From a virus, in the IMG/VR virus record IMGVR_UViG_3300032007_000018, positions 72,445 through 136,444 of that record: 64,000 nucleotides of DNA; one strand, 5' to 3'. Shown here in pieces: positions 31,242-50,121 of this stretch. The translations under genes were made by a program, and so were the position numbers. Every line of letters starts with the position of its first letter. Position 1 is the first letter of the stretch. Under the pieces are notes generated by a model, which worked only from the letters and a program-made list of their open reading frames with translations, was not told the DNA's origin and did no database searches.

Positions 31242-31679
31242 TCCGAAAACGAAAATTGGTTTCAGGATTATTTTGGCCAGACAAAAAGATTTTCGCGAGT
31301 GAAAAAAAATTTTTTCCCGAAATAGTACCCGGAGTACAGCATGTAAAACGTATTGTCGCTTCGCGGAATACGCAAGGCCTACTGTCGCGTCTCACCCCCG
31401 TCAAATAGCCCGGGTCAAATTAAAGTCCCCCCAACATTACTCGCCCACTATTGTTGCTCGCACGGCCGGCGTTGGGCGCGGCGGCCGTTGTTTGCGATAA
31501 CGCAGGCCTTCAGCAATTCACACGCGCACACGTCCCACACACAGCGCACCACACGCACGCCCAAAAGTCAATACACAAAATGCACAAACAATACCCGGAC
31601 ATTTTTGTGCAACATTACCATTGACAACTACCTGCGCCTGTGCTACAATGTAGACAACAAAGGAAAGGAGATACCCCCA

Positions 31680-32033
31680 ATGACTAACTTCTTCAAAGAC
31701 TCCAACACTCGCCCCTTCGCTATCACTATTACCATTCTGTTGGTTATCCTTCTCAGCTTCTGCATCTGGTTTATACTGGACGGCGAGCTTAAGAACGCCG
31801 AGGAGCGCAAGCCCGACTACTACGCGCTGGCCACCACAGTCAACGCCATTGACAGAGATACAGACGTCGTGACCTGCGAGGACAGCACAGGCAACTTGTG
31901 GGAGTTCTACGGCGTGGAAGATTGGCAAGTGGGGGACAACGCCAACCTGCTGATGGACACAATGGGAACAGAGAACATCTACGACGATGAAATCTGCGGC
32001 GCGACCTTCGGCGCGTGGACACTCACCAAGTAA
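31680..32033 (+). CDS. Early small membrane protein. First gene of the GC-rich promoter-cassette array.
   Basis: Class A promoter TTGACA 31621, tgcTACAAT 31641. SD AAGGAG. A transmembrane helix. The track ORF start at 31353 is an upstream artefact. Confidence 0.6.
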   Translation: MTNFFKDSNTRPFAITITILLVILLSFCIWFILDGELKNAEERKPDYYALATTVNAIDRDTDVVTCEDSTGNLWEFYGVEDWQVGDNANLLMDTMGTENIYDDEICGATFGAWTLTK

Positions 32034-32185
32034 ACAACAACAGCGCAGTTAAAAGGCTGCGCTGTTTGTCTATTGTTGGTTATTTAACTAACTAACAGCC
32101 GGACGGCATTGTTAAAAAACTAACGCTTGACAACACCGTGCGATTGTGCTATTATAATGATAGAAAGAGAAAGGAGATTAAAACA

Positions 32186-32326
32186 ATGTACGAATACGAA
32201 ATCTACAACGAGCGCACCAACGAGCATGACTTCATCCACGGCTACAACCGCGAGGACGCTTGGGCGCGCAACAAGTGGGCAGACCGCCGCGAGTGGCGCA
32301 TCATCCACACCGAATACATCGACTGA
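32186..32326 (+). CDS. Early small protein (46 aa)
   Basis: Own promoter (TTGACA 32127 / TATAAT 32153). SD AAAGGAGAT. Terminator hairpin after the stop. Confidence 0.5.
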   Translation: MYEYEIYNERTNEHDFIHGYNREDAWARNKWADRREWRIIHTEYID

Positions 32327-32587
32327 GAGGACGCGCAAGCGTCCTTTTTCTTTTGCCTATACATTGTTAGTTAATTAACTAACGAATGCCGATGACGAGC
32401 GCGCGGCCGCGAACTTCACCGCGCTAAAGTGCTACAGTAATAAATTACGCAAATGATTGTTAAATAACTCACAATCAGCCATCCCGAAACTACATTGTTA
32501 AAAAAATAATTATTAAAAAACTCTTGACATTTATCCGGTTGTATGTTATTATAATTACAGAAAGAAAAAGAAAAGGAGAACAAAAAA

Positions 32588-32746
32588 ATGAAAAAGCACA
32601 TCACTTACATGAATTGCGAAACGGGCGAAATCACTGAGATCCACAAGGACGCGATGGAATGGTATCGCGCGGGCGTTGAGGTGGCGCTGATGGACTACAG
32701 CGAAACGCTTGGCGAATGGGTAGAGAGAGGGCGCTGGATTCACTAA
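32588..32746 (+). CDS. Early small protein (52 aa)
   Basis: Promoter TTGACA 32524 / TATAAT 32550. SD AAAAGGAGAA. A terminator hairpin overlaps the 3' end. Confidence 0.5.
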   Translation: MKKHITYMNCETGEITEIHKDAMEWYRAGVEVALMDYSETLGEWVERGRWIH

Positions 32747-32869
32747 TCCAGCGCTTTTTATCCGGGTGCTTGTTAGTTAATTAACTAACAAAGTATTTTG
32801 AAAAAAACGCTTGACAAATAATCCGGTCTATGCTATACTATAATCAGAAAGAGCAAGGAGGAAATAAAA

Positions 32870-33052
32870 ATGACGCACACTGACTACTTTATCACCGCGT
32901 TTCGTTTCAATGAGACTTTCGATACTGAAGCCAAAGCCCGCAAACGTTTTGAAGAAGTCAAAACCCGCTTCACCTACTGCGAGTTGAAGCAAGCGGAAAC
33001 TGACGATGAAACCTACTACTACGCCAAAAGTCTGGAGATTTATCGCAAGTAA
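32870..33052 (+). CDS. Early small protein
   Basis: Track ORF. Promoter TTGACA 32811 / tgcTATACTATAAT 32831-44. Confidence 0.6.
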   Translation: MTHTDYFITAFRFNETFDTEAKARKRFEEVKTRFTYCELKQAETDDETYYYAKSLEIYRK

Positions 33053-33135
33053 GTCTCCAGACTTTTTCAAAAAACACTTGACATTTTCCCGGCTTTGTGC
33101 TATTATAATTATAGAAAAAGAAAGGAGATACTAAA

Positions 33136-33254
33136 ATGTTTTACTGGTACACTTTTGAAGATGGCTATGCGGTCTGCGTCAAGGGCTTTTCCAAGAACGA
33201 GCTTATCCGCGAGACGCGCAAGCATGGTTGCATTGTTTCCAAGGTTCCCGCGTG
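33136..33254 (+). CDS. Early small protein (39 aa)
   Basis: Promoter TTGACA 33078 / TATAAT 33104. SD AAAGGAGAT. Confidence 0.45.
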
Positions 33255-33345
33255 AACCTTGGAAATTTTTTTTAGATTTTTTTGAAAAAAGTCTTGACAT
33301 TCTGCGCCCGGTGTGCTATAATACAATCAGAAAGGGGATAGAGAA

Positions 33346-33513
33346 ATGAACGAATTCCGTGAAAAGCTGATTGACCGAATGATTAAGCAATTCGGGTTTG
33401 AGCATCCCAACACCATCGCCTTTGCTAACCTGTGCGAAGCCACTTGGATTAGTGACGAAGCCCTTGAGAAAGCGGTGGAACACCACGAAGCCAACAGCAT
33501 CTTTGAGGACTGA
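33346..33513 (+). CDS. Early small protein (55 aa)
   Basis: Promoter TTGACA 33294 / TATAAT 33317. SD AAAGGGGAT. Confidence 0.5.
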   Translation: MNEFREKLIDRMIKQFGFEHPNTIAFANLCEATWISDEALEKAVEHHEANSIFED

Positions 33514-33692
33514 GAAATCAGCCCTCTTTTTTATTCCAATAGCAAGATTGTTAGTTAATTAACTAACGAGCGTGCGCCCGGGCGGATTCACCGACTGCCG
33601 CAGATTGTTAAAAAAATAATTATTAAAAAATGCTTGACATTTTGCCCGGTCTGTGCTATTATAATTACAGAAAGAGAAAGGAGGCCACTAAA

Positions 33693-33800
33693 ATGGCTAT
33701 GACGATTGAATACTTTGAGACCATGGGCGATGCCCTTGATGAACTCCGCGACTGGGAGGCCTACGAGGCCGACATCGCCGATAGCGACCCCTGGGCCTAA
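33693..33800 (+). CDS. Early small acidic protein (35 aa)
   Basis: Promoter TTGACA 33634 / TATAAT 33660. SD AAAGGAGG. Confidence 0.4.
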   Translation: MAMTIEYFETMGDALDELRDWEAYEADIADSDPWA

Positions 33801-34071
33801 GCCCGGGGGATTTTTAATTCGTTTTTTCGGGCGCGCCGCCCACGACCCAGCCGGCGCGTTTTCGCACTAAATCAGTAGTTCGATAATTTGTTAGCGTTTT
33901 AGTGCGCTAAAGCGCTAACGTGCAATGTCCCGAAATGAATAATCATACATGGAAAATGAATAAAAATTTTTTTGCCAAATTGCATTTTGGGGGTTGACAT
34001 TCCCGGATAATCTGGTATAATAGGTTACAGAAAGGGCAAGGAAAAGCCCCCAAACCAGAAAGGAAAAAACA

Positions 34072-34224
34072 ATGTACTCTGTGTGGATGACCGATGACCT
34101 CTGCTGCGACGATGTGATGGTGTTCGAAGGAACCCTCGCTGACTGCCTCGCCTACACCGCCGATGACGAATTCGACGAAATGTACATCGTAGAGCCAGAT
34201 GGTTTCACCGTGTACGGTGACTAA
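34072..34224 (+). CDS. Early small acidic protein (50 aa)
   Basis: Promoter TTGACA 33994 / TATAAT 34016. Conserved leader ACAGAAAGGGCAAGGAAAAGCCC..AAACCAGAAAGGAAA, shared with 35277. Confidence 0.45.
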   Translation: MYSVWMTDDLCCDDVMVFEGTLADCLAYTADDEFDEMYIVEPDGFTVYGD

Positions 34225-34244
34225 TCCAAAAGGAGGACAACTCA

Positions 34245-34421
34245 ATGACCACTTTCTTCAACCGCACCCCTGCCGAGCAGGAAATCATCCGCAAGGCTTA
34301 CGACTTTGAAGTCGCCGCCATTGAAGCGGAAAGCTCCGAACGTAACCCCTACTTTGAAGCCCTACAAACTATGGGGCTGTGGGAAGCCGTCAATGAAGCG
34401 CTGGAAATGCGCCACAACTAA
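34245..34421 (+). CDS. Early small protein (58 aa)
   Basis: SD AAAGGAGGA. Co-transcribed with 34072. Confidence 0.45.
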   Translation: MTTFFNRTPAEQEIIRKAYDFEVAAIEAESSERNPYFEALQTMGLWEAVNEALEMRHN

Positions 34422-34706
34422 GAGAGCCGAGCCAATCGACTCTCTTTTCATTTGTCCAAGAGGATAAATAGCCACACGTGAGTAATGAATAATTATTCAT
34501 CGGCCGGCCGCCCACGCGCCATGCGGCCGGTTTTTCCATTATACCACAGCCCCAGTAATTTGTCAATAGACAATTTGCACAAATTTTCAATACACCGGGC
34601 GCCCGAAATTTGTGCATTTTGCCAAGAGTAGAAAATGAAAAAATAGTTGACAAAATGCCGCGCATCTGCTATACTGTTATCAGATAAGGAAAGGAGATAC
34701 AAAACG

Positions 34707-35153
34707 ATGAAAATTTGGTTTGACATGGATGGGACGCTGGCTGACCTGTACGGCGTTGATAACTGGCTGGATAAGCTCCGCTCTGGCGACCCCTCCCCCT
34801 ATATGGATGCCGCGCCGTTACTCCGCCTGTCCGCTCTGGCGCGAGTGCTGAATCGCCTGCTCCGCGAGGGCAACGAGGTCAGCATCGTGAGCTGGCTGTC
34901 TAAAAACAGCACCCCCGAATATGACAATATGGTGACTGCGGCAAAACACGCATGGCTGGCGAAACACCTGCCGAGCGTCAAGTGGACTGCGGTGCGGATT
35001 GTCCCCTACGGCACACCGAAAAGCGAGGTTGCCGAGCTTGACCCCCACGACGTGCTGTTTGACGATGAAGAAAACAACATCATCGAATGGGAAGAAGCTG
35101 GCGGTTGGGGCTTTGACCCCTCCGAGATTATGAGTTTTCTGCGGGCGGCATAA
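34707..35153 (+). CDS. HAD-superfamily 5'(3')-deoxyribonucleotidase-like (NT5C family) hydrolase
   Basis: MKIWFDMDGTLADLYG, which is HAD motif I DxDGT. Promoter TTGACA 34647 / TATACT 34670. The track ORF has an N-terminal artefact extension from 34647. Confidence 0.6.
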   Translation: MKIWFDMDGTLADLYGVDNWLDKLRSGDPSPYMDAAPLLRLSALARVLNRLLREGNEVSIVSWLSKNSTPEYDNMVTAAKHAWLAKHLPSVKWTAVRIVPYGTPKSEVAELDPHDVLFDDEENNIIEWEEAGGWGFDPSEIMSFLRAA

Positions 35154-35276
35154 GCCCGCGGGGCGCTCGCCCGGGCTGAAAAAAATTTTCAAAAACCCCT
35201 TGACATTTCCGGGAAACCTGCTATAATAGATTACAGAAAGGGCAAGGAAAAGCCCAAAAACCAGAAAGGAAACGCT

Positions 35277-35465
35277 ATGTATACTCTGATTATCACCCGC
35301 ACTTGCGGCGAGACCCCCACCGAGGTCAACTTCCCCATCTCCGGCTGCGATGCGGCTTATACCGCATTCCGCATGGCTTGCGAGCTGTGCGATCTCGCGG
35401 GCGGCGGTGTCTACCTGACAGATGCCAATACGGGCGAGATTCTCGCCGACAACTCCGAGGACTAA
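35277..35465 (+). CDS. Early small protein
   Basis: Track ORF. Promoter TTGACA 35209 / TATAAT 35221. Shares its leader with 34072. Confidence 0.5.
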   Translation: MYTLIITRTCGETPTEVNFPISGCDAAYTAFRMACELCDLAGGGVYLTDANTGEILADNSED

Positions 35466-35654
35466 TCCTCGGAGTTTTTTTGAGCCGCGCGTGCCCGGGC
35501 GCCACGCGCGGTTTTTGCATAATTATACGTCATTTATGAATTTTTATTCATTACACCTAGTAATCAAAAATTTTTTCATTTTTCCTAAAAAAGTTCTTGA
35601 CATCCGGGCGCAAGTGTGCTAATATAGTATCAGAAAACGAAAGGGGATAAAAAA

Positions 35655-36140
35655 ATGACTATCATCACTTCTGAACTGCCTATCAGCTTCATCTATGACC
35701 CTGCGCACAATCGCGCCCGTTATTCCATCAATAATGGCGAAAGCTGGATGAATCACGGCGAATTTTGTGAGCGCATGGCAAAAGTCATTCTCGGCTTCAG
35801 CCCCGACAAGGATTCCGTGGCTTTTGATAAGGGATATGACATTCCCGAACTCAAGGCGAGCGTTAAGTCCTATAAGTGCGGCCTCAGCAACTGCAAGGAC
35901 ATGCCTAAGACCCCCACCGAGTTCATGGCTGAGTTCTGGAGACGCGATATTGCCGAGCTCCACATATATGTCTGTGACCATGGCGATTATATGGCGCTCT
36001 ATATAATGAACACGCCAGAATTTCAGCGGTTCATTGAGCACTTCGCCAAGTGGGAAGAGGACACTCACAACTTCAGAATGTATACCTGCGACAGCAAGGT
36101 TGAACGGTGGTTGACAAATAATTATGCAGAGGATGAATAA
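35655..36140 (+). CDS. Early hypothetical protein (161 aa)
   Basis: Track ORF. Promoter TTGACA 35597 / TAATAT 35620. A palindromic terminator lies at 36122-36165. Confidence 0.65.
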   Translation: MTIITSELPISFIYDPAHNRARYSINNGESWMNHGEFCERMAKVILGFSPDKDSVAFDKGYDIPELKASVKSYKCGLSNCKDMPKTPTEFMAEFWRRDIAELHIYVCDHGDYMALYIMNTPEFQRFIEHFAKWEEDTHNFRMYTCDSKVERWLTNNYAEDE

Positions 36141-36400
36141 TCCTCTGCATAATTATTCATTTTCCGGCGGCGCGCTCACGGGCCTGGCGCGCCGACTTTC
36201 ACGCGCTAAAGTGCTAAAGTAATAAAAATTTGGATTATCACGCTTTCGCACGTTAAAGTATTAATTCCCGAAAGTAGTCCATCGCTGGACTATCCAAGAG
36301 TGGCGAAGATTGTTAAAAAAAAGATTATTAAAAAAGGGGTTGACACCCGGGCGATTGTGTGCTATACTGTTACCAGAGTTAAGGAAAGGAGATAACCACC

Positions 36401-36850
36401 ATGACTACCTACACTATCAACCGCCCCGCCGCCGCCCCGAAAAATGAGGGCATCGCCCGCGAATGGGCTCTGTGTGCCTACTATAAGGTTACCCGCACGT
36501 CACACGACAGCCTTGCCTATGACAAGGGCAGCGACCTTGACGCGGGTAGCAAGCATATCTCCATAAAGGCAAGCGCGTTCACTCTGATGGCGGGTTGTCT
36601 GTGTGAGGGTCTGACCTCCTTTGACGCCATCTGGAATCTTTATGCCAGCAAGGTGCATAGCAACACCTTCGCCTATGTCACCGCGGACTTCACCGTGTAC
36701 GAGATGAACCTTGACGAGTTCAAAAAGTTCGTATATGCTTTCGCTCATACCGAACGCGAGAGCGAGAAAAACGGCGGTCAGGTCAAGATTCGCCTCCGCA
36801 AGGAAAGCGGCAAGATGCTCAAGTGGCTGGCCAATATGGCCGCCGCTTGA
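36401..36850 (+). CDS. Early hypothetical protein (149 aa)
   Basis: Track ORF. Promoter TTGACA 36340 / TATACT 36364. Confidence 0.65.
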   Translation: MTTYTINRPAAAPKNEGIAREWALCAYYKVTRTSHDSLAYDKGSDLDAGSKHISIKASAFTLMAGCLCEGLTSFDAIWNLYASKVHSNTFAYVTADFTVYEMNLDEFKKFVYAFAHTERESEKNGGQVKIRLRKESGKMLKWLANMAAA

Positions 36851-36929
36851 ACGCCCCGCAAAAATAATGCTTGACAAATCAATGAATATATGCTATAATA
36901 CAAATAGAAAATGAAAAGGAGATAAAAAA

Positions 36930-37127
36930 ATGAGAGATATTAACAGAATTATGCCGCTGATGGAACAGCTCGGCAATGTTTGGGAGCAGTTTCCCGACCT
37001 GCGCTTTATGCAGTTCATCGTCAACTTCCAGTCGTGGCTCGGCTCCGATGGCTTCTATATGGAAGATGACAAATTGATCGAGAAGATTTGCGAGTTCGCA
37101 ACCGAAATGAGAAAGGGGTACTTCTAA
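36930..37127 (+). CDS. Early small protein
   Basis: Track ORF. Promoter TTGACA 36871 / TATAAT 36894. Confidence 0.55.
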   Translation: MRDINRIMPLMEQLGNVWEQFPDLRFMQFIVNFQSWLGSDGFYMEDDKLIEKICEFATEMRKGYF

Positions 37128-37393
37128 TGGCTATCACAATCAAGCGCGAAAAGAACAACCGCGGCGTTCCTCTGCGCGGTCTGCGAGTTGGCGAAACTTT
37201 CCTATATGACAACCGCGTGGGCGTAGTGGTCGAGCGCAATGGGCATCAGTTCTATCTTGACCTGACCACCTGCCACAACTTCCGCAAAAGCAATGACCTG
37301 CGGTGGGACACTTATTACAAAAACAGCGAGCTTGACCCCGATACCCTTGTCCTGCCTGTGGAAATTGAACTTACTTACAAGGTCGTGGGCTAA
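37127..37393 (+). CDS. Early small protein (88 aa)
   Basis: TAATG overlap with the upstream gene. It is the C-terminal part of track ORF 37088..37393. Confidence 0.5.
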   Translation: MAITIKREKNNRGVPLRGLRVGETFLYDNRVGVVVERNGHQFYLDLTTCHNFRKSNDLRWDTYYKNSELDPDTLVLPVEIELTYKVVG

Positions 37394-37496
37394 GCCTGCG
37401 ACCTTTGGCCCGGGCGGCGCGAAAAAAATTTAATTTTATGCTTGACATTTGCTTACACCTGTGGTATATTAGTTATAGAAAGAGAGGTTGATTGAA

Positions 37497-37619
37497 ATGC
37501 GTGATTACTTCAAGCGTATTCGTTGCAAAGGTCGGTATTGCCGCTATGAGATTACGAACAAAACTGTTCGTAGCGTGGCAAAGAATGAAACTAAAAAGGA
37601 GATGGCGAAACGTGGATAA
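37497..37619 (+). CDS. Small basic Cys-containing protein (40 aa), tentative
   Basis: SD GAGAGG, 7 nt, ATG. Promoter TTGACA 37442 / TATATT 37465. An alternative overlapping frame is track ORF 37492..37761. Confidence 0.3.
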   Translation: MRDYFKRIRCKGRYCRYEITNKTVRSVAKNETKKEMAKRG

Positions 37620-37761
37620 GGAACTGAAAGCCTATCGGCAGAAAATGAGCGCAGAAGATTTACAGATGTATCTGCATTTCAAGAAGCGCGGGAGCAAGGT
37701 TGCCGCAAAGAAAGGCAAAGGGTCGTATGACCGCAAGGACTTTAAGAAAGGGGTTGCGTAG
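37609..37761 (+). CDS. Small basic protein, tentative GTG start
   Basis: SD AAGGAG, 8 nt, GTG. It is the C-terminal part of the track ORF. Confidence 0.3.
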   Translation, partial: NVDKELKAYRQKMSAEDLQMYLHFKKRGSKVAAKKGKGSYDRKDFKKGVA

Positions 37762-37762
37762 A

Positions 37763-37957
37763 ATGATGGAATGGCAGAAGAAAATGCTTGAGGGTATGCG
37801 CCTGATGCAGGAAGCCTGCGCCGAGGTCGGTTCTTGGAATGACTGTCGCAAATGCCCTTTTGGTCGGTATTGCGATACGCTCATGGAGAACGATGACATT
37901 GATTCCTTCATGGGATTGCAAGACAAAGAATGGATTGGCGATGAGAAAGTCGATTGA
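37763..37957 (+). CDS. Small Cys-containing protein (64 aa)
   Basis: MMEWQKK... is the C-terminal part of track ORF 37700..37957. Confidence 0.4.
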   Translation: MMEWQKKMLEGMRLMQEACAEVGSWNDCRKCPFGRYCDTLMENDDIDSFMGLQDKEWIGDEKVD

Positions 37958-38157
37958 TTTTTTCAATCGGTTTTTTACTTTGTTCCATTTTTGGCCCGCG
38001 CGGCGACGGTCGCTGGGCAACCGAGGCGCGCGGTATTCGCGCCGGGCGCGCGTTTTCAACAAATTTTGAGCGCCAAGTTTGTTCATAATTACCAGTTGAC
38101 ATTTCCCAAAAGGTGTGCTATACTCTAATTGTAATTTGAAGAAAGGACACCAAACCA

Positions 38158-38820
38158 ATGTATGATTTTGACATTTTCGAGCGATTTATCGTGGTAGATA
38201 CTGAAACCACGAATACGCTTGACGAGCCTATCTGTTATGATGTGGGCTTTGCGGTTGTTGACAGATTCGGCGCGGTTTACGAGAAGTTTTCTTTCGTAGT
38301 TGCCGAAGTGTTCCTTGACCGCGAGTTAATGTCTTACGCCTATTACGCCGACAAAATCGAGCAGTATTGGCAGGACATTAAAGCAGGTCGGCGCAAGCTG
38401 GCGAAATTCTCCACCATTCGGCGCGTTTTCGCTGATGCTTGCAAGCGAAATCAAGTGAAAGTTGTGCTTGCCCACAACGCCCGCTTTGATAACCGCTCCC
38501 TCAATCTGACACAGCGTTATCTGACCGCCTCAAAGTATCGCTATTTCTTTCCTTTTGGCTTGCAAGTATGGGATACGCTGAAAATGTCGCGTGAAGTGCT
38601 GAAAAACGATGATGACTATGGCGCGTTCTGCTACAACAACGACTTTCTGACGCAACGCCTTTGCAAGCAATTTACCGCCGAAGTGCTTTTCCGCTTCATC
38701 ATTGGCGAGATTGATTTTGAGGAATCGCACACAGGGCTTGAAGATGTGCTGATTGAAAAGGAAATTTTTGCCTATCTCATGTGGCGCAAGCCCGAAATCT
38801 GCGGCAAGCTCTGGGGTTAA
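38158..38820 (+). CDS. DnaQ-like DEDDh 3'-5' exonuclease
   Basis: VVDTETT (Exo I), AHNARFD (Exo II), HTGLEDV (Exo III). Promoter TTGACA 38096 / TATACT 38119. Confidence 0.7.
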   Translation: MYDFDIFERFIVVDTETTNTLDEPICYDVGFAVVDRFGAVYEKFSFVVAEVFLDRELMSYAYYADKIEQYWQDIKAGRRKLAKFSTIRRVFADACKRNQVKVVLAHNARFDNRSLNLTQRYLTASKYRYFFPFGLQVWDTLKMSREVLKNDDDYGAFCYNNDFLTQRLCKQFTAEVLFRFIIGEIDFEESHTGLEDVLIEKEIFAYLMWRKPEICGKLWG

Positions 38821-38940
38821 TTACCCTAGGGCAACCGCCCGGGCGGCCGGCAAATTGCACAATCAGCACAAGGAAAAAATCTTATTCTTTGTGTATTTTG
38901 CCTATTGTAATTTTCGTAGGGCTATGCTATACTATAATTG

Positions 38941-39037
38941 TTCCAAGGGAAAGGGAACGCAAGCCGAACCAAGGTCGGGAGAATTGAGAACCATCCGAGG
39001 CCGCTCAAAAAAATCCGAAAAAAAATGAAAAAAAGGC
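38941..39037 (+). ncRNA. Promoter-driven ORF-less structured RNA (about 100 nt). Shares its 5' end with the RNA at 46262.
   Basis: Promoter TTGTAA 38905 / tgcTATACT 38928. Begins AUUGUUCCAAGGGAAAGGGAACGC, with hairpins GUUCC..GGAAC and CCGA..UCGG. No ORF. The next promoter starts at 39038. Confidence 0.4.
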
Positions 39038-39118
39038 TTGACAAATCCCCAAACCTGTGGTACAATAAAATCACAAAAGGAGAGCTGAACTCCACAAACA
39101 GAGAAAGGGTTGATACCA

Positions 39119-39489
39119 TGACCACTTCCAAGACCACCAACAAGACCGCCCTTCAGTTCGCGCTGGACAATCTGCCGAACGCTCCCGCCGATGTGCGCGA
39201 GAAGTGGCAGAAGATGATCGACCAGCTCGACAAGAAGAACGCCGCACCCAAGAAGCTGACCGCCCAGCAGGAGAAGAATGTCGCCATGAGCGGCGAGGTG
39301 CTGGACTTCCTGCTCGACCACGAGGGCGAGGGCTTCACTGTGAGCGACCTGCTCAAGTCTGTGCCTGTCCTTGAGGGCGACAGCAACCAGCACGCCTCTG
39401 CGCTGATGCGTGCGCTTGTGCTGGCTGGCTCTGTGGAGAAGTACACCGACAAGCGGCGCACCTACTTCCGCGCGGTGACTGCCGCGTAA
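39119..39489 (+). CDS. Early protein, paralog family 1 (with 45643 and 59848)
   Basis: Promoter TTGACA 39038 / TACAAT 39061. Shares ...KRRTYF... C-terminus and ATGACC start context with its paralogs. Confidence 0.6.
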
Positions 39490-39649
39490 TCCCCAGCGGC
39501 AGGGGGGGCAATAGCCCCCCCAATTCTTTTACCCTGCCACTTTAATACTTTAGCGCGCGAGCGCGCCCGGGCGACGGTTTACATAATAATTTTCTGCTTG
39601 ACATTTTCCAAAAGGTATGCTATACTATCCACAGAAAGGAGAGATAGCT

Positions 39650-40012
39650 ATGACCGAAAAGGAAATTCTTCACGCGATGAAAACCCTTGACTTGACCCGC
39701 GAAGAAGCGATTGAAATGCTCCAAGAGGATGAAGCAATCGACCGCGGCGCTGACCCGCACCCGCTGACCCCCGAACAGGAGAAAGCAAGTAAAGCGGCGC
39801 GTATTGTCTCTACTGGACCGCGCACCGCCCAAGTAAAGCGAGAGCGCAAGCCGAATGAGGACAAGCGCGAACTGATTGCGGCGATTGAAGAAATGCTGAC
39901 TTACAGCGACATTCAAGCCGAGAGCGTCACCATCACCAACCCCGAGCGTCAAATCGACTTTGAATTCCGCGGCAATCGCTACCGCGTAGTGTTGAGCGCC
40001 CCGCGCAAGTAA
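39650..40012 (+). CDS. Early protein, paralog family 2 (with 42632)
   Basis: Promoter TTGACA 39598 / TATACT 39621. SD AAAGGAGAGAT. Shares LT.EQEK...ERKPN motifs with 42632. Confidence 0.6.
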   Translation: MTEKEILHAMKTLDLTREEAIEMLQEDEAIDRGADPHPLTPEQEKASKAARIVSTGPRTAQVKRERKPNEDKRELIAAIEEMLTYSDIQAESVTITNPERQIDFEFRGNRYRVVLSAPRK

Positions 40013-40100
40013 GCGCGGGGTAATTCGCCCGGGCGCAAGTTAAAAAAATAACTTTTAAAAAACTATTGACATTTAGCGCCCCCTGTGCTATACTAGAGTG

Positions 40101-40440
40101 GCCATTGACCGAGGAACTGTGGAGGGAAGCCAACATCAACCCTGCGAGTACCAAAGAATGTGTGTTGGTGATGATTACACGATGAAGTCGGCCTGCGGAC
40201 AAAAGTTTTCTTAAATGGGAGAAAGGTTATAGATGCAGCAGGAACGATGAATTTTTTAGGCAGTTTGTTTCCTGTCGGTGAAAAGGAAAAAAGACTCCCC
40301 CTTGAGGGGGCGGTGAGCAAAAATGGCAAAAGACTTAGTAGTGAGCGAGCGAGTCTTCAACTCTCAACACGCAAAAGCGAATGGTGAGCCAGAAAGCAAG
40401 AGACGCCCCCAAGAAAGGGTAAAAAAAAATGAAAAACCTA
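40101..40440 (+). ncRNA. ORF-poor transcript of about 340 nt immediately upstream of the tRNA (candidate structured ncRNA or tRNA leader)
   Basis: Promoter TTGACA 40066 / TATACT 40089. No plus-strand ORF in the track. Hairpins CCCCCUUGAGGGGG and AAGACU..AGUCUU. One weak 42-codon ORF ends at a TAG inside the next -35. Confidence 0.35.
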
Positions 40441-40474
40441 TTGACAAATAGCCAAAAGTGTGCTATACTATAAT
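40441..40474 (+). promoter_or_regulatory. Class A promoter driving the tRNA
   Basis: TTGACA, 17 bp, tgcTATACTATAAT, ending 9 nt before tRNA position 1. Confidence 0.6.
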
Positions 40475-40482
40475 CACAACAA

Positions 40483-40558
40483 GGGAATGTAACTCAAATG
40501 GTAGAGTAGCGGATTCTTACTCCGAAGGTTGCGGGTTCAACTCCTGTCATTCCCACCA
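40483..40558 (+). tRNA. tRNA-Lys (anticodon CUU) with encoded CCA
   Basis: Cloverleaf: acceptor GGGAATG/CATTCCC (7 bp); D-arm ACTC-AAATGGTA-GAGT; anticodon stem GCGGA/TCCGA (one G.A); loop TTCTTAC with U33-CUU-A37; variable AGGTT; T-arm GCGGG-TTCAACT-CCTGT; discriminator A, CCA. Confidence 0.75.
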
Positions 40559-40729
40559 ATGTTTCTAATCTCCTTTCTATTCCTCTCTTTCTGTGCAGGG
40601 CGGCTCCTATTGGGGCCGCTTTGTGCGCCCGGGCGGGCGATTGTTAAAAAATAAACTTTTGAAAAAAGTATTGACAAAACGCATCAAAGATGCTATACTA
40701 TAATCACCAAGAGAAAAGGAGATAAAAAA

Positions 40730-40942
40730 ATGTTCAATGATGCTATTCTCGTAGGTCGCAACTGCCCCTTCTGCGGCGAGTACCATGAGGTCATGGTCAG
40801 CGAAGCTGACTATGTCGCGTGGCAGAGCGGGGAACTGGCGCAGAACGCCTTCCCCTACCTCTCCGCCGATGAGCGTGAAATCCTCATCAGCGGCATCTGC
40901 CCCAAGTGCTGGGCAAAAACTTTCGGGGAGGAGGATGAATAA
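40730..40942 (+). CDS. Small Zn-ribbon protein
   Basis: Track ORF with CPFCG...CPKC. Promoter TTGACA 40671 / TATAAT 40699. Confidence 0.6.
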   Translation: MFNDAILVGRNCPFCGEYHEVMVSEADYVAWQSGELAQNAFPYLSADEREILISGICPKCWAKTFGEEDE

Positions 40943-41208
40943 TGAAAGCAACTGGAATTGTGCGCCGACTGGATGACCTCGGACGCATCGTGCTCCCCAA
41001 GGAGATTCGCCGCACTCTCAATGTTCACGAGGGCGACGCAATGGAGATTTGGGTGGATGATGAACACAAGGGCATCGTCCTCACCAAGTACAACTGCGAC
41101 GAAAACGCGGTAACGCTTCTCAAGCAGGCTGCGCAGATGCTGGAGGGCAGCGAGAACGCCGCTTATCGCGACCTTATTTTCCACATCGCATCTAAGCTGG
41201 GGGAATAA
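40942..41208 (+). CDS. AbrB/SpoVT-family (swapped-hairpin) DNA-binding regulator
   Basis: VRRLDDLGRIVLPKEIRRTLNVHEGDAMEIWVDDE matches the AbrB N-domain signature. ATGA overlap with the upstream gene. Confidence 0.7.
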   Translation: MKATGIVRRLDDLGRIVLPKEIRRTLNVHEGDAMEIWVDDEHKGIVLTKYNCDENAVTLLKQAAQMLEGSENAAYRDLIFHIASKLGE

Positions 41209-41343
41209 TTACCCCCAGCTAACCGCCCGGGCAAAAGATTGTTAAAAAATAAACTTTTCAAAAACCTATTGACAAAACAAAAAAGGTATGCTATACTATA
41301 ATCACATTGAGGGTGATGACCGAACATCGAAAGGAGATACAAA

Positions 41344-41673
41344 ATGACTTATCTTGTTAAGAGGGAAATGACAAGAGCGTGGAAGCGTTTTTCAACTTTC
41401 GCATTTCTCGACCAGTACCTGCGCGCCCACGTGGGCGACACTTTCACAGTCCGCGACCTGCGGGCTATCTGCCCCGACATCTGCCCGAACACCGCTGCCG
41501 CTTGGCTGAGCGACTACGCCAGAGCTTTCGGCGTCAAGGTCAGCGTGAGCAATACCTACATCGAACTTGACAAGCCCATCAAGATTGACAGCTGGGGCGG
41601 GCGCGCTGTCTACATTGAGGGGTATAAAGCCCACCTGTACCATGTGGACGCGCTCGACCCCACCTGGGAGTAA
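41344..41673 (+). CDS. Early hypothetical protein
   Basis: Track ORF. Promoter TTGACA 41269 / TATAAT 41297. Leader GGGTGATGACCGAACATCG. Confidence 0.6.
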   Translation: MTYLVKREMTRAWKRFSTFAFLDQYLRAHVGDTFTVRDLRAICPDICPNTAAAWLSDYARAFGVKVSVSNTYIELDKPIKIDSWGGRAVYIEGYKAHLYHVDALDPTWE

Positions 41674-41864
41674 TTCCCACGAGAACATCACCGACATTCA
41701 CGACAGCCCGCTTTTCAAGAGTCTGTTTGGGGAGTAATCCCCAGCGGGCTCTGCCCGGGCGATTCGTCAGAATCAATAAATCCAAAAGCAAAAGTTTGTG
41801 TAACATTCTAAATTGATTTTTATAAAAAATTATGTTATTATAATAATAGAAAGGAGAATGAGAA

Positions 41865-42038
41865 ATGAGATTGTTAATGTTCGTATTTTGTGGGCTTCTG
41901 GCTCTGCGCTTCGTGTGGGACTTCTCCCAAATGTCCAAAAGCAAAGACGCAACAGCCTTTACAAGAGGGTTAATGTCTGCGGCGTTTGATGCCGCTGTGA
42001 TTATCCTGTTTGCAATTATTGAGAAAGGAAGATGGTAA
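41865..42038 (+). CDS. Small membrane protein (57 aa) in an AT-rich islet
   Basis: Class B promoter TTGATT 41814 / TATAAT 41839. SD AAAGGAGAA. Two hydrophobic segments. Confidence 0.45.
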   Translation: MRLLMFVFCGLLALRFVWDFSQMSKSKDATAFTRGLMSAAFDAAVIILFAIIEKGRW

Positions 42039-42039
42039 A

Positions 42040-42516
42040 ATGAAAATGTTGATTATTTTTGCCCTTGCTACTCTTTTGAATGTGGTGCTTGCCACTATCA
42101 AAAGTGTAATGACAATCAAGGGGACTAAAATTTCTGCGGCGGTGTGGAACGCGCTGTCTTTCGGTCTGTATTCCTACATCGTCATTTTGACCGCCACCGC
42201 TGATTTAACCACGCTTGAAAAAGTTGTTGTTACTGTGGTGTGTAACCTCATCGGCGTGTATGGCGTCAAGTGGGTTGAGGAAAAAATGCGGAAAGACAGA
42301 ATGTGGAAATTAGAAATGACTGTGCTTTCTGCCGAAGCGGACACAATGCACCGCGCATTGGAAGATGCTAACATTCCTAATCACTATGTAAACGCAGGGC
42401 GTCACGCCGCTTTCAGTTGCTACTGTGCAACTAAGGCAGACACCGATGCCGCCCTTGCGATTGGTGAAAAGTTTAACGCAAAAACCTTTGCGGCTGAAAC
42501 CCATTTAGCGCCCTAA
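42040..42516 (+). CDS. Membrane protein (about 3 transmembrane helices) with a soluble C-terminal domain
   Basis: Track ORF 42010..42516 with ATG at 42040 (MKMLIIFALATLL...). Co-transcribed with 41865. Confidence 0.55.
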   Translation: MKMLIIFALATLLNVVLATIKSVMTIKGTKISAAVWNALSFGLYSYIVILTATADLTTLEKVVVTVVCNLIGVYGVKWVEEKMRKDRMWKLEMTVLSAEADTMHRALEDANIPNHYVNAGRHAAFSCYCATKADTDAALAIGEKFNAKTFAAETHLAP

Positions 42517-42631
42517 TAGTTTAGGGCGCTAAAGCGCCCGGGCCGCGATTGTTAAAAAACTAACGCAAAAAATCTCTTGACAACTGTTCCAAAGTGTGCT
42601 ATACTGTATTACAGAAAGGGGGATAAAGCAC

Positions 42632-43015
42632 ATGGCAGAAACGCAAAAAGAAAAAATCATGCGCGTTCTGCAAGTGGACAGCCGACAGGCCGATGAAATC
42701 CTTGCCTATGACAAAGCGGTGGAGCGCGGCGAGAAAACACCCTATGACCTCACCGCCGAGCAGGAAAAGGAAGTCCGCAAGTATCGGCAGGCTGAACGCA
42801 AGCCCACGCTTTACAAGTGGGACACCAAAAAGCGTGAGCGTAAACCCAACGCCACAAAAGAGGGAATTGTCGCAGAAATCGCAACTTTTCTCAAAGAAAA
42901 CAGCGATTTTGACACAAAAGATGTGGAAATCACGAACAAAAATCGCGAGATTACTTTCCAAATCTCCGACGATACCTTTACTGTGACACTGGTGCAGAAG
43001 CGCAAGCCCAAATAA
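42632..43015 (+). CDS. Early protein, paralog family 2
   Basis: Promoter TTGACA 42577 / TATACT 42600. SD AAAGGGGGAT. Confidence 0.6.
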   Translation: MAETQKEKIMRVLQVDSRQADEILAYDKAVERGEKTPYDLTAEQEKEVRKYRQAERKPTLYKWDTKKRERKPNATKEGIVAEIATFLKENSDFDTKDVEITNKNREITFQISDDTFTVTLVQKRKPK

Positions 43016-43161
43016 TGCGGAAAAACCGCGGTTTTCGCAAGAAAATCGCGGTTTTTCTAACTTTTTTCGCATTTTTTAACGATTTACTGCGCGAAAGTGC
43101 GCCGCCCGGGTTGATTTTGTAAAAAATTTTTTGTATAATAATAATGTAAGGAAGTGAAAGA

Positions 43162-43413
43162 ATGAATGTGGTAAAGAAAATGGATGACATTGGAAGAATT
43201 GTCATTCCCCAAGATTTGCGGCGTTCATTGCGTTGGATGGGCGGAGATGAAATTGAAATCATTTCAAACAATGATGGAAGTCTTACTTTGCGCAAGCACG
43301 AAAATGATACTGCCAAAAGATTAAAAGAAATAAGTTTGGAATGGTCTAATGACATTGATGTTGAACAGCAATTCACTGAACTAATCAAACTAATTGAAAG
43401 TAAAACAAAATAA
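43162..43413 (+). CDS. AbrB/SpoVT-family regulator (second copy)
   Basis: MDDIGRIVIPQDLRRSLRWMGGDEIEI. Class B promoter TTGATT 43111 / TATAAT 43134. AT-rich islet. Confidence 0.65.
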   Translation: MNVVKKMDDIGRIVIPQDLRRSLRWMGGDEIEIISNNDGSLTLRKHENDTAKRLKEISLEWSNDIDVEQQFTELIKLIESKTK

Positions 43414-43429
43414 CGGAGGAGCCAAAGCA

Positions 43430-43546
43430 ATGTCTATTGAATTGTTAGAAGCCCTAATCTTAATTGTCAAACACTGTTTGGAATCAAACGGTTGCGATGA
43501 TTGTATTCTAAAGGGTTTCTGTGGTAAGTTGCCAAAAGACTGGTAA
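43430..43546 (+). CDS. Small Cys-rich peptide (38 aa)
   Basis: SD GGAGGAG, then ATG. CLESNGCDDCILKGFCG. Confidence 0.35.
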   Translation: MSIELLEALILIVKHCLESNGCDDCILKGFCGKLPKDW

Positions 43547-43716
43547 CCGACACCGGCCGCAGTGCGGTCGAATTTTCACGAGGCAAGCCCTTTGGCTCTT
43601 TTTGTTTTGATTGCCCGGGCCGCAGGTTTACATAATAATTTTCCCGAAAAAAACTGTTGACAAACCGCCAAGAGTATGCTATACTATAATCACCAAGAGA
43701 AAAGGAGATAAATCAA

Positions 43717-44007
43717 ATGGCTACTAGGTATTCTGCGCGTTGGCGCTGGGAGGGTAAGGACAGCGAAAGCATTGCGCTTTTCTCTGCTGATGTTCCGCAG
43801 GAAGTCCTTGTTGACTTCGTGGATTCCCTCTGGGCGAATGCCGCAAACTGGCAGGCTGGCGAGGGCGAAGACATTCGCTGGGTTGACTGCATCGACATGG
43901 AAACTGGCGAGGTCATTGCCGAGCGTTCCGACTGGGACGAACCTGACAACTGCGACGACGATTGCGGCTTCGACCCCTACATGGGTTGCTATACCGATGA
44001 CTGCTAA
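43717..44007 (+). CDS. Early small acidic protein
   Basis: Track ORF. Promoter TTGACA 43657 / TATAAT 43685. Confidence 0.6.
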   Translation: MATRYSARWRWEGKDSESIALFSADVPQEVLVDFVDSLWANAANWQAGEGEDIRWVDCIDMETGEVIAERSDWDEPDNCDDDCGFDPYMGCYTDDC

Positions 44008-44020
44008 GGGGGGTGGAACT

Positions 44021-44167
44021 ATGACCTTGATGCAATGTTATAGTAAAATCATCAGCGAGGTATTCTGGCGCTCCATCTATTTCGGCGTCCCTTTCTCGCA
44101 GGTTTGGCCTCTGCCTGTCATCCTCTGCGTAGCAATCACTGTTTACCACTTCATCACGCGAGAGTGA
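44021..44167 (+). CDS. Small hydrophobic peptide (48 aa)
   Basis: ATG after GGGGGGTGG. It is the C-terminal part of track ORF 43772..44167. Confidence 0.35.
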   Translation: MTLMQCYSKIISEVFWRSIYFGVPFSQVWPLPVILCVAITVYHFITRE

Positions 44168-44261
44168 TGAAGTGGCCCGGGCCAAAATTTTTTTTGAAAA
44201 AGGTATTGACAAATAAACACAAGTATGCTATACTGTATTCAGAAAGTGAGGGATACAGAAA

Positions 44262-44570
44262 ATGAAAAACGAAGTGAAATACAAAGATTATCGCATCGGG
44301 CGTGATGTGTACACTGTAAAACTGACCTATTCTCCGCAAGGTAGCCTTTTCGGCCCTGAAGTGCGTGTGGAAGTGATGAAATGGCATCAGCCGCCCCGCA
44401 ACCTGTGGGAGCGCATCACCGAATGGTGGAAATATTATCTTTCTGGTTGGGTATGGAACCCCGCTTTGACAAATGCTTCGCTTAATGCTTACTGCATTGA
44501 CAAGTGCAACTATGAAGCAGCACAACGCCTCGCAATAGAGAGGGGCGACAAGGAATGGGAGGCTATGTGA
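44262..44570 (+). CDS. Early hypothetical protein
   Basis: Track ORF. Promoter TTGACA 44206 / TATACT 44229. Confidence 0.6.
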   Translation: MKNEVKYKDYRIGRDVYTVKLTYSPQGSLFGPEVRVEVMKWHQPPRNLWERITEWWKYYLSGWVWNPALTNASLNAYCIDKCNYEAAQRLAIERGDKEWEAM

Positions 44571-44611
44571 GCCTCCCTGCCGCCCGGGCGCGATTGTTAA
44601 AAAACTAACGC

Positions 44612-44643
44612 TTGACAATAGGCCAAAAGTGTGCTATACTATA
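44612..44643 (+). promoter_or_regulatory. Representative class A promoter (one of about 34)
   Basis: cTTGACAatag...tgTGCTATACTATAAT. Preceded by a GCCCGGGCG box and an A-tract (GATTGTTAAAAAACTAACG). Confidence 0.6.
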
Positions 44644-44684
44644 ATCACATTGAGGGTGGTGGCCTACACTAAGGAGATTTTTCT

Positions 44685-45311
44685 ATGGAAAAGCACAAAT
44701 TTTTTGAGCGTGAAATCTTGCTTCTTGAAAGTGAAGATTTGCGCGACTTCGCCCGCTGGTATCTTGACAATCATGTGGGCAACTGGTTCTGGAAGTCTGG
44801 CGCGTCCGCAAGTGGGAAGTATCATCCCTCTTTCACTCATGGCGAGGGCGGGCTTGTGCGTCACACTCGCGCGGTGTGTATGGTCTGCGAGGAACTTCTG
44901 CGCATGAGCGGCTACGCATACATGAAAGCGGAATACAAAGACTTTGCGCGGCTTGCCTGCCTGCTCCACGATACGCGCAAGTATGGAAGCGGCGACGAGG
45001 AAGATAAGAGTTATTATCCGCGACATGGTGAAGCCGCCGCAAATGATGTTGGCGTTGCGTGGCGTGAGTTTTTCCACAGTCATTCCTGCCCCGAATTGCT
45101 CTTGATGGCTATTCGCTCCCACATGGGACAGTGGACTGAAAACCGCGATGACCGCCCCTTTACCAACATTGACCGCCTTGTGCATCTGTCGGACTACATT
45201 GCAAGCCGCCCATTTTGGGACATTCCCGAACTGACATCGCAGTATTACGAGGACGCGGCGCGAGAAATTCTTGATGCCCCGCCTGCTGGTATGGTGGACT
45301 ACCCCTTTTAA
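44685..45311 (+). CDS. HD-domain phosphohydrolase
   Basis: KYHP...H...LLHDTRKY motifs. Track ORF. Confidence 0.6.
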   Translation: MEKHKFFEREILLLESEDLRDFARWYLDNHVGNWFWKSGASASGKYHPSFTHGEGGLVRHTRAVCMVCEELLRMSGYAYMKAEYKDFARLACLLHDTRKYGSGDEEDKSYYPRHGEAAANDVGVAWREFFHSHSCPELLLMAIRSHMGQWTENRDDRPFTNIDRLVHLSDYIASRPFWDIPELTSQYYEDAAREILDAPPAGMVDYPF

Positions 45312-45642
45312 TGGGGGTAGTCCGCGCCCGGGCAGCCGGCAAATTGCACAAAAGGGGTCTAAAATTTTAACACTTTTTGTGCAAAATCCCATCTTGCAAT
45401 TTTCTGAAAATCTGCTATAATAATAATTGTCAAGAGGCGGTGGACACCGCAGAACAAAAACGAGAGGCGCGGACAGCGGTGAACAGTGCGGAGCGCCCAG
45501 CCCGAAAAAATTTTTCAAAGAAATTTGAAAAACCTCTTGACAAACAGCGCGAAGTGTGCTACAATAAGAATGTAAGCAAGAGGGAAACAAAACCCCTGCT
45601 AATAAAATGGGTGGTGACCGACACCAGAAAGAGGTAGATACT

Positions 45643-46044
45643 ATGACCAAGACTGAAAAGATGACCAACCGCAAGGCTCTGACCTACTGCATTGACAACT
45701 GCGACCTGCCCGCCGATGTTGCGGAGAAGCTGACCGCCATGGTCGCCGCGCTGGATAAGAAGTCCACCGCCGAGCGCAAGCCCACCGCCAAGCAGGGCGA
45801 GAACGCCACTGTGCGCGCCGCTGTCGTGAAGTTCATCAACGACAACGCCGAGGGCGACGGCTTCACCTGCTCCGACCTTATCAAGGCCTGCCCCGCTGTT
45901 GAGGGCAAGTCCAACCAGTATGTCTCCGCCATCCTGCGTCAGGCGGTGCTGGCTGGCGAGATTTCCAAGGGCACTGTGAAGCGTCGCACCTACTTCGCCC
46001 CTGTGGGCGTCTACGCCACCGCTGACGAGGACGAGGGGGAGTAA
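45643..46044 (+). CDS. Early protein, paralog family 1
   Basis: Promoter TTGACA 45537 / TACAAT 45560. Leader hairpin UGGUGACCGACACCA directly upstream. The track ORF has an upstream extension. Confidence 0.6.
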   Translation: MTKTEKMTNRKALTYCIDNCDLPADVAEKLTAMVAALDKKSTAERKPTAKQGENATVRAAVVKFINDNAEGDGFTCSDLIKACPAVEGKSNQYVSAILRQAVLAGEISKGTVKRRTYFAPVGVYATADEDEGE

Positions 46045-46261
46045 TCCCCCTCCCCTCACAAGGGGCAAGCGCCCCTTTACATGGGCCGTCGGGGGGTCAG
46101 GCCGCGAAAGTCAACGCTTGCCTGTGGCGTTGATAAGTAGTGCCCTTGGGCGGTCGATGTAAGGGGGCGCTTGCGCGCCCGGGTGATTGACAAAAACTTA
46201 ACGAAAATTTTTTTGAAAAAAGTATTGACAAAAGCAGACCTGTGTGCTATACTATAATTGT

Positions 46262-46545
46262 TCCAAGGGAAAAGGGAGCGCGGCGAGGGCTAACAGCGAC
46301 GAGTGGACGCACTTAGGACACCTTGACCGCGCAGGAACATTCAAGGTCGCCACGCGACCAAAAGAGCAAAAGGCAAGATGTGAGAAAGGACGAGCTTACA
46401 ATGGGTTTGCCGATGTGTTATCCTAAGTGGTGGAAGTGACCCACCCGCCAAAAAGAGGTCACCGCCTGTGGCGTCCAAAACCGCAGGTGTTGGATAAGGG
46501 GTCGTTGCCGCGAGGAGTTGCTAACCTTGCGGCAGTCGGCCCGGG
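46262..46545 (+). ncRNA. Promoter-driven ORF-less structured RNA (about 285 nt)
   Basis: Promoter TTGACA 46225 / TATACTATAAT 46248-58. Begins UUGUUCCAAGGGAAAAGGGAGCGC like the RNA at 38941. Stems GGUCGC-cac-GCGACC and UGCCGCGAGG-aguugcuaa-CCUUGCGGCA. No credible ORF; track ORF 46244..46426 starts inside the promoter. Confidence 0.45.
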
Positions 46546-46637
46546 TGATTGTTAAAAAAATAATTAGCAAAAAAGACTTGACAACGACGTAGTTATCTGC
46601 TATACTATAATCACCAAGAGAAAAGGAGATAACTAAA

Positions 46638-46862
46638 ATGTTCAGAGGTTGGTTTGACGATTTGGAAAGGGCAATCGTGGCGTTTCGTGCGCTTGGGATT
46701 GATGACCTGTTTTGCTCCATCAGTGTCAACCTGTATGGCGATTTTGTTTTTGAAATTGCCGAAGGTGTCAAATACTTCGTGAAGCATGACAGCCTTGGCA
46801 ACTACAGCGTGTGGCGCAACTTCGGGGATTGGAGAAATCCCGATTGGAGGGAAATCAAGTGA
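46638..46862 (+). CDS. Early small protein
   Basis: Track ORF. Promoter TTGACA 46578 / TATAAT 46604. Confidence 0.6.
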   Translation: MFRGWFDDLERAIVAFRALGIDDLFCSISVNLYGDFVFEIAEGVKYFVKHDSLGNYSVWRNFGDWRNPDWREIK

Positions 46863-47011
46863 CTGTCAAAGAACTAATCAAAAAGTTGGAAACCATGCCA
46901 CAAAATGTGGAAGTCATTTTTTGGAATGAACAGCCCGAAACATGGTATTCCACTAAGACCTGCGAAATCTCTGTTAATTCGCACACAGGTTATGTCGATT
47001 TTGAAATCTAA
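46859..47011 (+). CDS. Early small protein (50 aa), GTG start
   Basis: GTGA overlap with the upstream stop. C-terminal part of track ORF 46811..47011. Confidence 0.4.
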   Translation: MTVKELIKKLETMPQNVEVIFWNEQPETWYSTKTCEISVNSHTGYVDFEI

Positions 47012-47029
47012 GAAAGGAATCTGATTACT

Positions 47030-47221
47030 ATGACGAACGAACTGAAATGCCCCAAGTGTGGCGGAACGCACATCATGGAAGATGACTGCTATGACGTCAT
47101 CGGCGGAGCGGAAAACACCATCAAAGAACTGATGTGCGGTTGCTGTGAGGACTGCGGTGCTGATGTTCAATGGGAAAGGGTTTATAAATTCATTGGCTAC
47201 GATGGCATCGAGGAGGGCTAA
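47030..47221 (+). CDS. Small Zn-ribbon protein
   Basis: Track ORF with CPKCGG...CGCCEDCG. Confidence 0.6.
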   Translation: MTNELKCPKCGGTHIMEDDCYDVIGGAENTIKELMCGCCEDCGADVQWERVYKFIGYDGIEEG

Positions 47222-47320
47222 GCCCTCTTCGGTCGCCCGGGTCATTGTGAAAAAACTAACGCTTGACAAAATGCCGCTAATGTGCTATACTAAGAGCGTA
47301 AACAGAAAGGGGATAACAAA

Positions 47321-47542
47321 ATGATTGACGAAGAACTTATTTACAAAGCACAGCGTATACTTAATGACAGATGCCTCTGGTGGGAAGATAGCTGGCGCAA
47401 GCTTTCCATAAAAGGTGAAACAGAGGCAAGTGCGCGGTCTGCGGCTCGCGCAAATGCTTATAAATCCGCATGTGATATTCTTCTCGCGGCGGTGCAGGGA
47501 AATAAAGAAGTTTTGAAGGAGTTTGATTACTATGCTGACTAA
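47321..47542 (+). CDS. Early small protein
   Basis: Track ORF. Promoter TTGACA 47264 / TATACT 47286. Confidence 0.6.
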   Translation: MIDEELIYKAQRILNDRCLWWEDSWRKLSIKGETEASARSAARANAYKSACDILLAAVQGNKEVLKEFDYYAD

Positions 47543-47783
47543 AAAGTTTTTCTGCCCTGTGAATGGCTGGGACTGCCCCTACTTCAAAAAGGATGGTTCT
47601 TGCTCCATGATTGACAAGGGGCTTGACCCCGAGGACGAGTGCGACGATGCCGCCTGCTTTTTGGAGGACGAGGATGATTGCCCCTGCGTGTGGGAAGATG
47701 AAAATGGCAATCGCTATGATGTTGATGAACTTCTTGCGCAGGGGTATCGCTTCGCCAATGGTGAGCCTGTGTTAGCCGAGTAA
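47532..47783 (+). CDS. Small acidic Cys-containing protein
   Basis: Track ORF 47523..47783. The ATG at 47532 is the preferred start. Confidence 0.5.
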   Translation: MLTKKFFCPVNGWDCPYFKKDGSCSMIDKGLDPEDECDDAACFLEDEDDCPCVWEDENGNRYDVDELLAQGYRFANGEPVLAE

Positions 47784-47883
47784 ACCTCGGCTAACCTCCC
47801 GGGCGCAAGTTAAAAAAATAACGCTTGACATTTTCGTTTTTGTATGCTATACTATGTATAGAAAACGAAAGGAGATAACAAAA

Positions 47884-48255
47884 ATGTTTGACATTAAAAA
47901 CTGCCCCGATGAAGCGTGGAACTATGAGTTTATCGTCTGCGAGACCCGCGACGATGGACTGGTTTTCAACAGTTACCACAAGAGCGGCTGTGCCGCTGAA
48001 ACTGTCGCAAGCCATCTGAATTGTGGCGTCGTCGTTCACAATGTCCGCATCCAAGGCTACAAGGACCCCGCTCCTATGAAGCGCTTCACCTTCAGCGGCA
48101 AGTGGTATTGGGACTGCTTCGCGCATGACATTGAAGAGGCAAAGCAGAAGTATTCCGATGAATCCTACCCCGAAGACATTTACATCGCCAACTATGATGA
48201 TGTAGAGGTTGAAGAGTGCGATTCTGCCGCAAATGAAAAGGAGATAAAAAGATGA
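47884..48255 (+). CDS. Early hypothetical protein
   Basis: Promoter TTGACA 47825 / TATACT 47848. SD AAAGGAGAT. The track ORF is extended upstream. Confidence 0.6.
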   Translation: MFDIKNCPDEAWNYEFIVCETRDDGLVFNSYHKSGCAAETVASHLNCGVVVHNVRIQGYKDPAPMKRFTFSGKWYWDCFAHDIEEAKQKYSDESYPEDIYIANYDDVEVEECDSAANEKEIKR

Positions 48256-48575
48256 AGATTGAATCTAAAATCAGCGGTTGGAGCATCACTGATGTGAGCA
48301 TCAAGATTTTTCCCCACCTGCGCAGCGAAATCGTGACGCTGAACGACATTGACAAGTTATCCCAGCGTTCGGCACAGTGGATTTTTGACCACTACAACCT
48401 CGTGGGGCTGAACGCCGAAATTGCGGGATGCCATTTCGGTGTGCTTATGTCGCATGATGACATGTGTAAAGTCTCCATCATGGAGAGCTACCCCGAAATT
48501 GAAAAGGAACTTGCGGATTATTTCAATCCCTCTTTCGGGGACTGGACAAAGTGCTACTTGCGGTTTGGGCACTAA
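48252..48575 (+). CDS. Early hypothetical protein
   Basis: Track ORF, ATGA overlap with the upstream gene. Confidence 0.6.
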   Translation: MKIESKISGWSITDVSIKIFPHLRSEIVTLNDIDKLSQRSAQWIFDHYNLVGLNAEIAGCHFGVLMSHDDMCKVSIMESYPEIEKELADYFNPSFGDWTKCYLRFGH

Positions 48576-48682
48576 GCCCAAGCCGCGGTAGCCCGGGCGC
48601 AAAATTTTTTCAAAAAACCTCTTGACAACCTCGCGTAAATGTGCTATAATCAAGGTACAAAAAACGAAGGGAGACTTCAAAA

Positions 48683-48955
48683 ATGACTTTGGTTCTGAAT
48701 CGCGACTGGGGCGGCTACTCTCTGCCGCAGGACTTCTGTGATGCCTATGGTATCGGCGATGCGTGGGATGCGCCTGTCGAGCGCGATGACCCCCGTCTTA
48801 TCAAGTGGGTGCGCGACCACGCCGATGGCCGCGGCAAGTGCGGCGACCTCGCCTGTGTGGAAATCCCCGACAACTGCACCGACTACAAGATCGATGACTA
48901 CGATGGCATGGAATCCGTCATCTATGTGGTGGACGGCAAAATCTATCACGCCTAA
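48683..48955 (+). CDS. Early hypothetical protein
   Basis: Track ORF. Promoter TTGACA 48622 / TATAAT 48645. Confidence 0.6.
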   Translation: MTLVLNRDWGGYSLPQDFCDAYGIGDAWDAPVERDDPRLIKWVRDHADGRGKCGDLACVEIPDNCTDYKIDDYDGMESVIYVVDGKIYHA

Positions 48956-49071
48956 GCAGGGGGCAACCCCTGCCGCGGCCCGGGCGGTTTACATAATAAT
49001 TTTCTGCTTGACATTTTGAAAAAGGTATGCTATAATCAGTGTAGAAAATGAAAAAGGGAGGGTTTGCTGTA

Positions 49072-49220
49072 ATGACGCTTGATGAGATGAAAGAAAAAGC
49101 CATTGAAAATTTCATCAATGCTTGGGACGAGCTTACGATGCTTGGTCTGATGGTCTGCGACGATGTTACTAAAGAGTACATTGACAAAGACGACATTGAT
49201 GTGCGCGAAGTGGAGGGTTG
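49072..49220 (+). CDS. Last small gene of the GC-rich array (49 aa)
   Basis: Promoter TTGACA 49008 / TATAAT 49031. SD AAGGGAGGG. Confidence 0.4.
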
Positions 49221-49436
49221 ACATAACCCTCCTCGCGCCCGGGTGATTTCGCCGGGCCGCTGACGCAGGCAGCTGGTCCGTTCTTCGCCCCCAAAACACA
49301 TATGCAAATTTTTTCGTCACACGAGTGGCATATGCCGCGATCCCTATTACTCCCGAAACCCCCGGTCGGGGGCCGATACCTAGCATATGGCCTTCCGGCC
49401 TTGACTTTTATAAAAAAATATGTTATAATATAAAAA

Positions 49437-49523: not shown

Positions 49524-49593
49524 AGTTCAAAATGCCTCGTTTGCTATGCCCTAGCTCCATTGAAATCTAATCAACGTCTTTTTCTCCGTTGGC

Positions 49594-49622: not shown

Positions 49623-49654
49623 TTATATAGAAAATAAGAAAAGAGGTAAACCAT

Positions 49655-50113: not shown

Positions 50114-50121
50114 TAAGTAAA

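What the first reader, a model, noticed from the sequence alone, without database searches (positions are those of the whole stretch)
31250..49250. An 18-kb GC-rich island (about 55 percent GC, versus about 33 percent for the rest) built from about 34 near-identical promoter cassettes, each driving one or two tiny genes
The unit repeats with remarkable regularity: gene, then a GC palindrome with an invariant CCCGGG (usually gCCCGGGc), then the A-tract GATTGTTAAAAAAnTAAC..TTTTnAAAAAA, then cTTGACA, 17 bp, TGcTATAcTATAAT, then AAAGGAGAT and ATG.

-35 boxes lie at about 31621, 32127, 32524, 32811, 33078, 33294, 33634, 33994, 34647, 35209, 35597, 36340, 36871, 37442, 38096, 38905, 39038, 39598, 40066, 40441, 40671, 41269, 42577, 43657, 44206, 44612, 45394, 45537, 46225, 46578, 47264, 47825, 48622 and 49008.

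The coding sequences are GC-rich while the promoters and UP elements are AT-rich, so composition alternates on a 100-500 bp scale. This is an extreme case of a one-gene-one-consensus-promoter early region and looks like a host-takeover or anti-defence gene arsenal. The compositional break from the structural module suggests either acquisition from a high-GC source or deliberate codon and TAG avoidance.
Basis: seen in the sequence. Interest (0 to 1): 0.85.

Follow-up and report, generated by a model that had tools for sequence, protein, structure and literature searches.

The report
Dense early-promoter array in recoded phage
This is the early-gene region of a gut or rumen phage that reads TAG as an amino acid in its late genes: about 34 near-perfect host-type promoters each drive one to three tiny TAG-free genes, an extreme but recognisable form of the host-takeover regions known from phages SPO1, T5 and T4.

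Summary
Between 31.6 and 49.0 kb, 32 sites match TTGACA-16/17-TGnTATAnT at 11 or 12 of 12 positions. Two more have weak -35 boxes. All lie on the + strand. They drive 43 small genes (median 74 aa), a tRNA-Lys(CUU) and several RNAs without ORFs.

GC is 48.4%, not 55%, and the excess is mostly synonymous (GC3 0.66 versus 0.23 in late genes). CCCGGG occurs 26 times, all in the island and all intergenic. It follows 3' hairpins at a variable distance from the -35, so it is not in every cassette.

The window belongs to a relative of phAss-1. Its late genes need TAG read as sense (94 TAG in one 3059-aa gene), while island genes contain no TAG.

Thirteen related loci carry the same arrays (about 11-46 promoter matches per locus by two scan patterns), but gene content is largely different and rearranged. 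GC3 of shared genes varies continuously among lineages, which argues against import from a high-GC source.

Two new points emerged. CCGG is purged from early coding sequence (1 versus 23 expected) but sits inside the spacers of the first promoters. GATC and ACGT are also depleted specifically in the early region.

Verdict: new variant of a known kind.

The parts
28803..28843 (.). Context: divergent pair of class-II (AT-spacer) promoters. 28803 on the minus strand heads the TAG-recoded late operon at 1-28775. 28815 on the plus strand heads gene 28876-29448.
31250..31620 (+). Non-coding lead-in to the array: GC-rich, with a CA-rich run (31519-31562) and the first CCCGGG at 31409.
31621..32075 (+). 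Unit 1: promoter 31621-31649, gene 31680-32033 (117 aa, N-terminal TM), canonical terminator 32039-32066.
32127..32385 (+). Unit 2: promoter 32127-32155, gene 32186-32326 (46 aa), terminator 32325-32348, 22-bp palindrome TTGTTAGTTAATTAACTAAC at 32364-32385.
32524..32795 (+). Unit 3: promoter 32524-32552 with CCGG in the spacer, gene 32588-32746 (52 aa), terminator, palindrome 32773-32794.
32811..33070 (+). Unit 4: promoter 32811-32839 (CCGG in spacer), gene 32870-33052 (60 aa), terminator.
33078..33276 (+). Unit 5: promoter 33078-33106 (CCCGG in spacer), gene 33136-33255 (39 aa), terminator 33235-33266.
33294..33585 (+). Unit 6: promoter 33294-33322 (12/12, CCCGG in spacer), gene 33346-33513 (55 aa), terminator, palindrome 33546-33567, CCCGGG 33577.
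33634..33820 (+). Unit 7: promoter 33634-33662 (CCCGG in spacer), gene 33693-33800 (35 aa), terminator hairpin 33788-33809 containing CCCGGG 33802.
33994..34450 (+). Unit 8: promoter 33994-34021 (16-nt spacer, CCCGG in spacer), 50-nt leader, genes 34072-34224 (50 aa) and 34245-34421 (58 aa), terminator.
34485..34566 (-). GC hairpin (34489-34516) with a convergent consensus minus-strand promoter (34566 to 34538). Function unknown.
34647..35180 (+). Unit 9: promoter 34647-34675, gene 34707-35153 (148 aa, NT5C-like 5'-deoxynucleotidase, a core gene of the clade), hairpin, CCCGGG 35170.
35200..35520 (+). Unit 10: promoter 35200-35227 (16-nt spacer, CCGGG in spacer; 89% identical to unit 8's promoter and leader), gene 35277-35465 (62 aa), terminator 35451-35476, second hairpin around CCCGGG 35494.
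35597..36145 (+). Unit 11: promoter 35597-35625 (-10 TAATAT, CCGGG in spacer), gene 35655-36140 (161 aa).
36340..36860 (+). Unit 12: promoter 36340-36368 with CCCGGG 36346 immediately after the -35, gene 36401-36850 (149 aa).
36871..37420 (+). Unit 13: promoter 36871-36899 (12/12), genes 36930-37127 (65 aa) and 37127-37393 (88 aa), hairpin, CCCGGG 37409.
37442..37985 (+). Unit 14: promoter 37442-37470, genes 37497-37619 (40 aa, uncertain), 37612-37761 (49 aa, GTG start, matches genes called in L013 and L037) and 37763-37957 (64 aa), terminator 37944-37976.
38096..38850 (+). Unit 15: promoter 38096-38124, gene 38158-38820 (220 aa, DEDD/DnaQ-like exonuclease, core gene with 5939 homologues), hairpin, CCCGGG 38838.
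38905..39030 (+). Unit 16: weak -35 promoter 38905-38933 flanked by TTGCACAA..TTTGTG repeats. It drives an ORF-less transcript of about 80 nt starting ATTGTTCCAAGGG.
39038..39575 (+). Unit 17: promoter 39038-39066, 51-nt leader, gene 39118-39489 (123 aa, winged-helix-like, paralogue of 45643), hairpin 39502-39521, CCCGGG 39566.
39598..40040 (+). Unit 18: promoter 39598-39626, gene 39650-40012 (120 aa, core family of unknown fold, paralogue of 42632), hairpin, CCCGGG 40028.
40066..40430 (+). Unit 19: promoter 40066-40094 driving a conserved ORF-less RNA of about 330 nt (40095-40425).
40441..40640 (+). Unit 20: promoter 40441-40469, tRNA-Lys(CUU) 40483-40558, CU-rich anti-SD-like tail 40559-40600, hairpin, CCCGGG 40628. 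Compared with L013 and L037, this is a promoter+tRNA cassette inserted into unit 19.
40671..41235 (+). Unit 21: promoter 40671-40699, genes 40730-40942 (70 aa, Cys4 zinc-ribbon-like) and 40942-41208 (88 aa, AbrB/MazE-like), hairpin, CCCGGG 41226.
41269..41765 (+). Unit 22: promoter 41269-41297, 46-nt leader, gene 41344-41673 (109 aa), hairpin, CCCGGG 41754.
41813..42545 (+). Unit 23: class-II AT-spacer promoter 41813-41841 (TTGATT), lower-GC genes 41865-42038 (57 aa) and 42040-42516 (158 aa, membrane), hairpin, CCCGGG 42537.
42577..43110 (+). Unit 24: promoter 42577-42605, gene 42632-43015 (127 aa, paralogue of 39650), terminator 43019-43058, CCCGGG 43105.
43111..43620 (+). Unit 25: class-II AT-spacer promoter 43111-43139, AT-rich genes 43162-43413 (83 aa, AbrB/MazE-like, GC 0.35) and 43430-43546 (38 aa, GC 0.37), CCCGGG 43614.
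43657..44185 (+). Unit 26: promoter 43657-43685, genes 43717-44007 (96 aa) and 44021-44167 (48 aa), 12-bp hairpin, CCCGGG 44176.
44206..44590 (+). Unit 27: promoter 44206-44234, gene 44262-44570 (102 aa), hairpin, CCCGGG 44583.
44612..45335 (+). Unit 28: promoter 44612-44640, gene 44685-45311 (208 aa, HD-domain phosphohydrolase), hairpin, CCCGGG 45327. The homology block with L037 runs from one CCCGGG to the next.
45394..45530 (+). Unit 29: weak -35 promoter 45394-45421, ORF-less transcript of about 90 nt starting ATTGTCAAGAGG.
45537..46185 (+). Unit 30: promoter 45537-45565, 77-nt leader, gene 45643-46044 (133 aa, GC3 0.85, highly conserved winged-helix-like protein), hairpins, CCCGGG 46178.
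46225..46548 (+). Unit 31: promoter 46225-46253, ORF-less RNA of about 290 nt starting ATTGTTCCAAGGG, hairpin, CCCGGG 46540.
46578..47245 (+). Unit 32: promoter 46578-46606, genes 46638-46862 (74 aa), 46859-47011 (50 aa) and 47030-47221 (63 aa), hairpin, CCCGGG 47236.
47263..47805 (+). Unit 33: promoter 47263-47291, genes 47321-47542 (73 aa) and 47532-47783 (83 aa), hairpin, CCCGGG 47798.
47825..48600 (+). Unit 34: promoter 47825-47853, genes 47884-48255 (123 aa) and 48252-48575 (107 aa), 11-bp hairpin, CCCGGG 48592.
48622..48985 (+). Unit 35: promoter 48622-48650 (12/12), gene 48683-48955 (90 aa), hairpin, CCCGGG 48979.
49008..49245 (+). Unit 36 (last): promoter 49008-49036 (12/12), gene 49072-49221 (49 aa), hairpin, CCCGGG 49238.
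49401..50157 (+). Array boundary: class-II promoters 49401-49429 and 49594-49622, gene 49655-50113 (152 aa), bidirectional terminator 50126-50157. An equivalent class-II promoter closes the array in L013, L015, L022, L028, L034 and L036.

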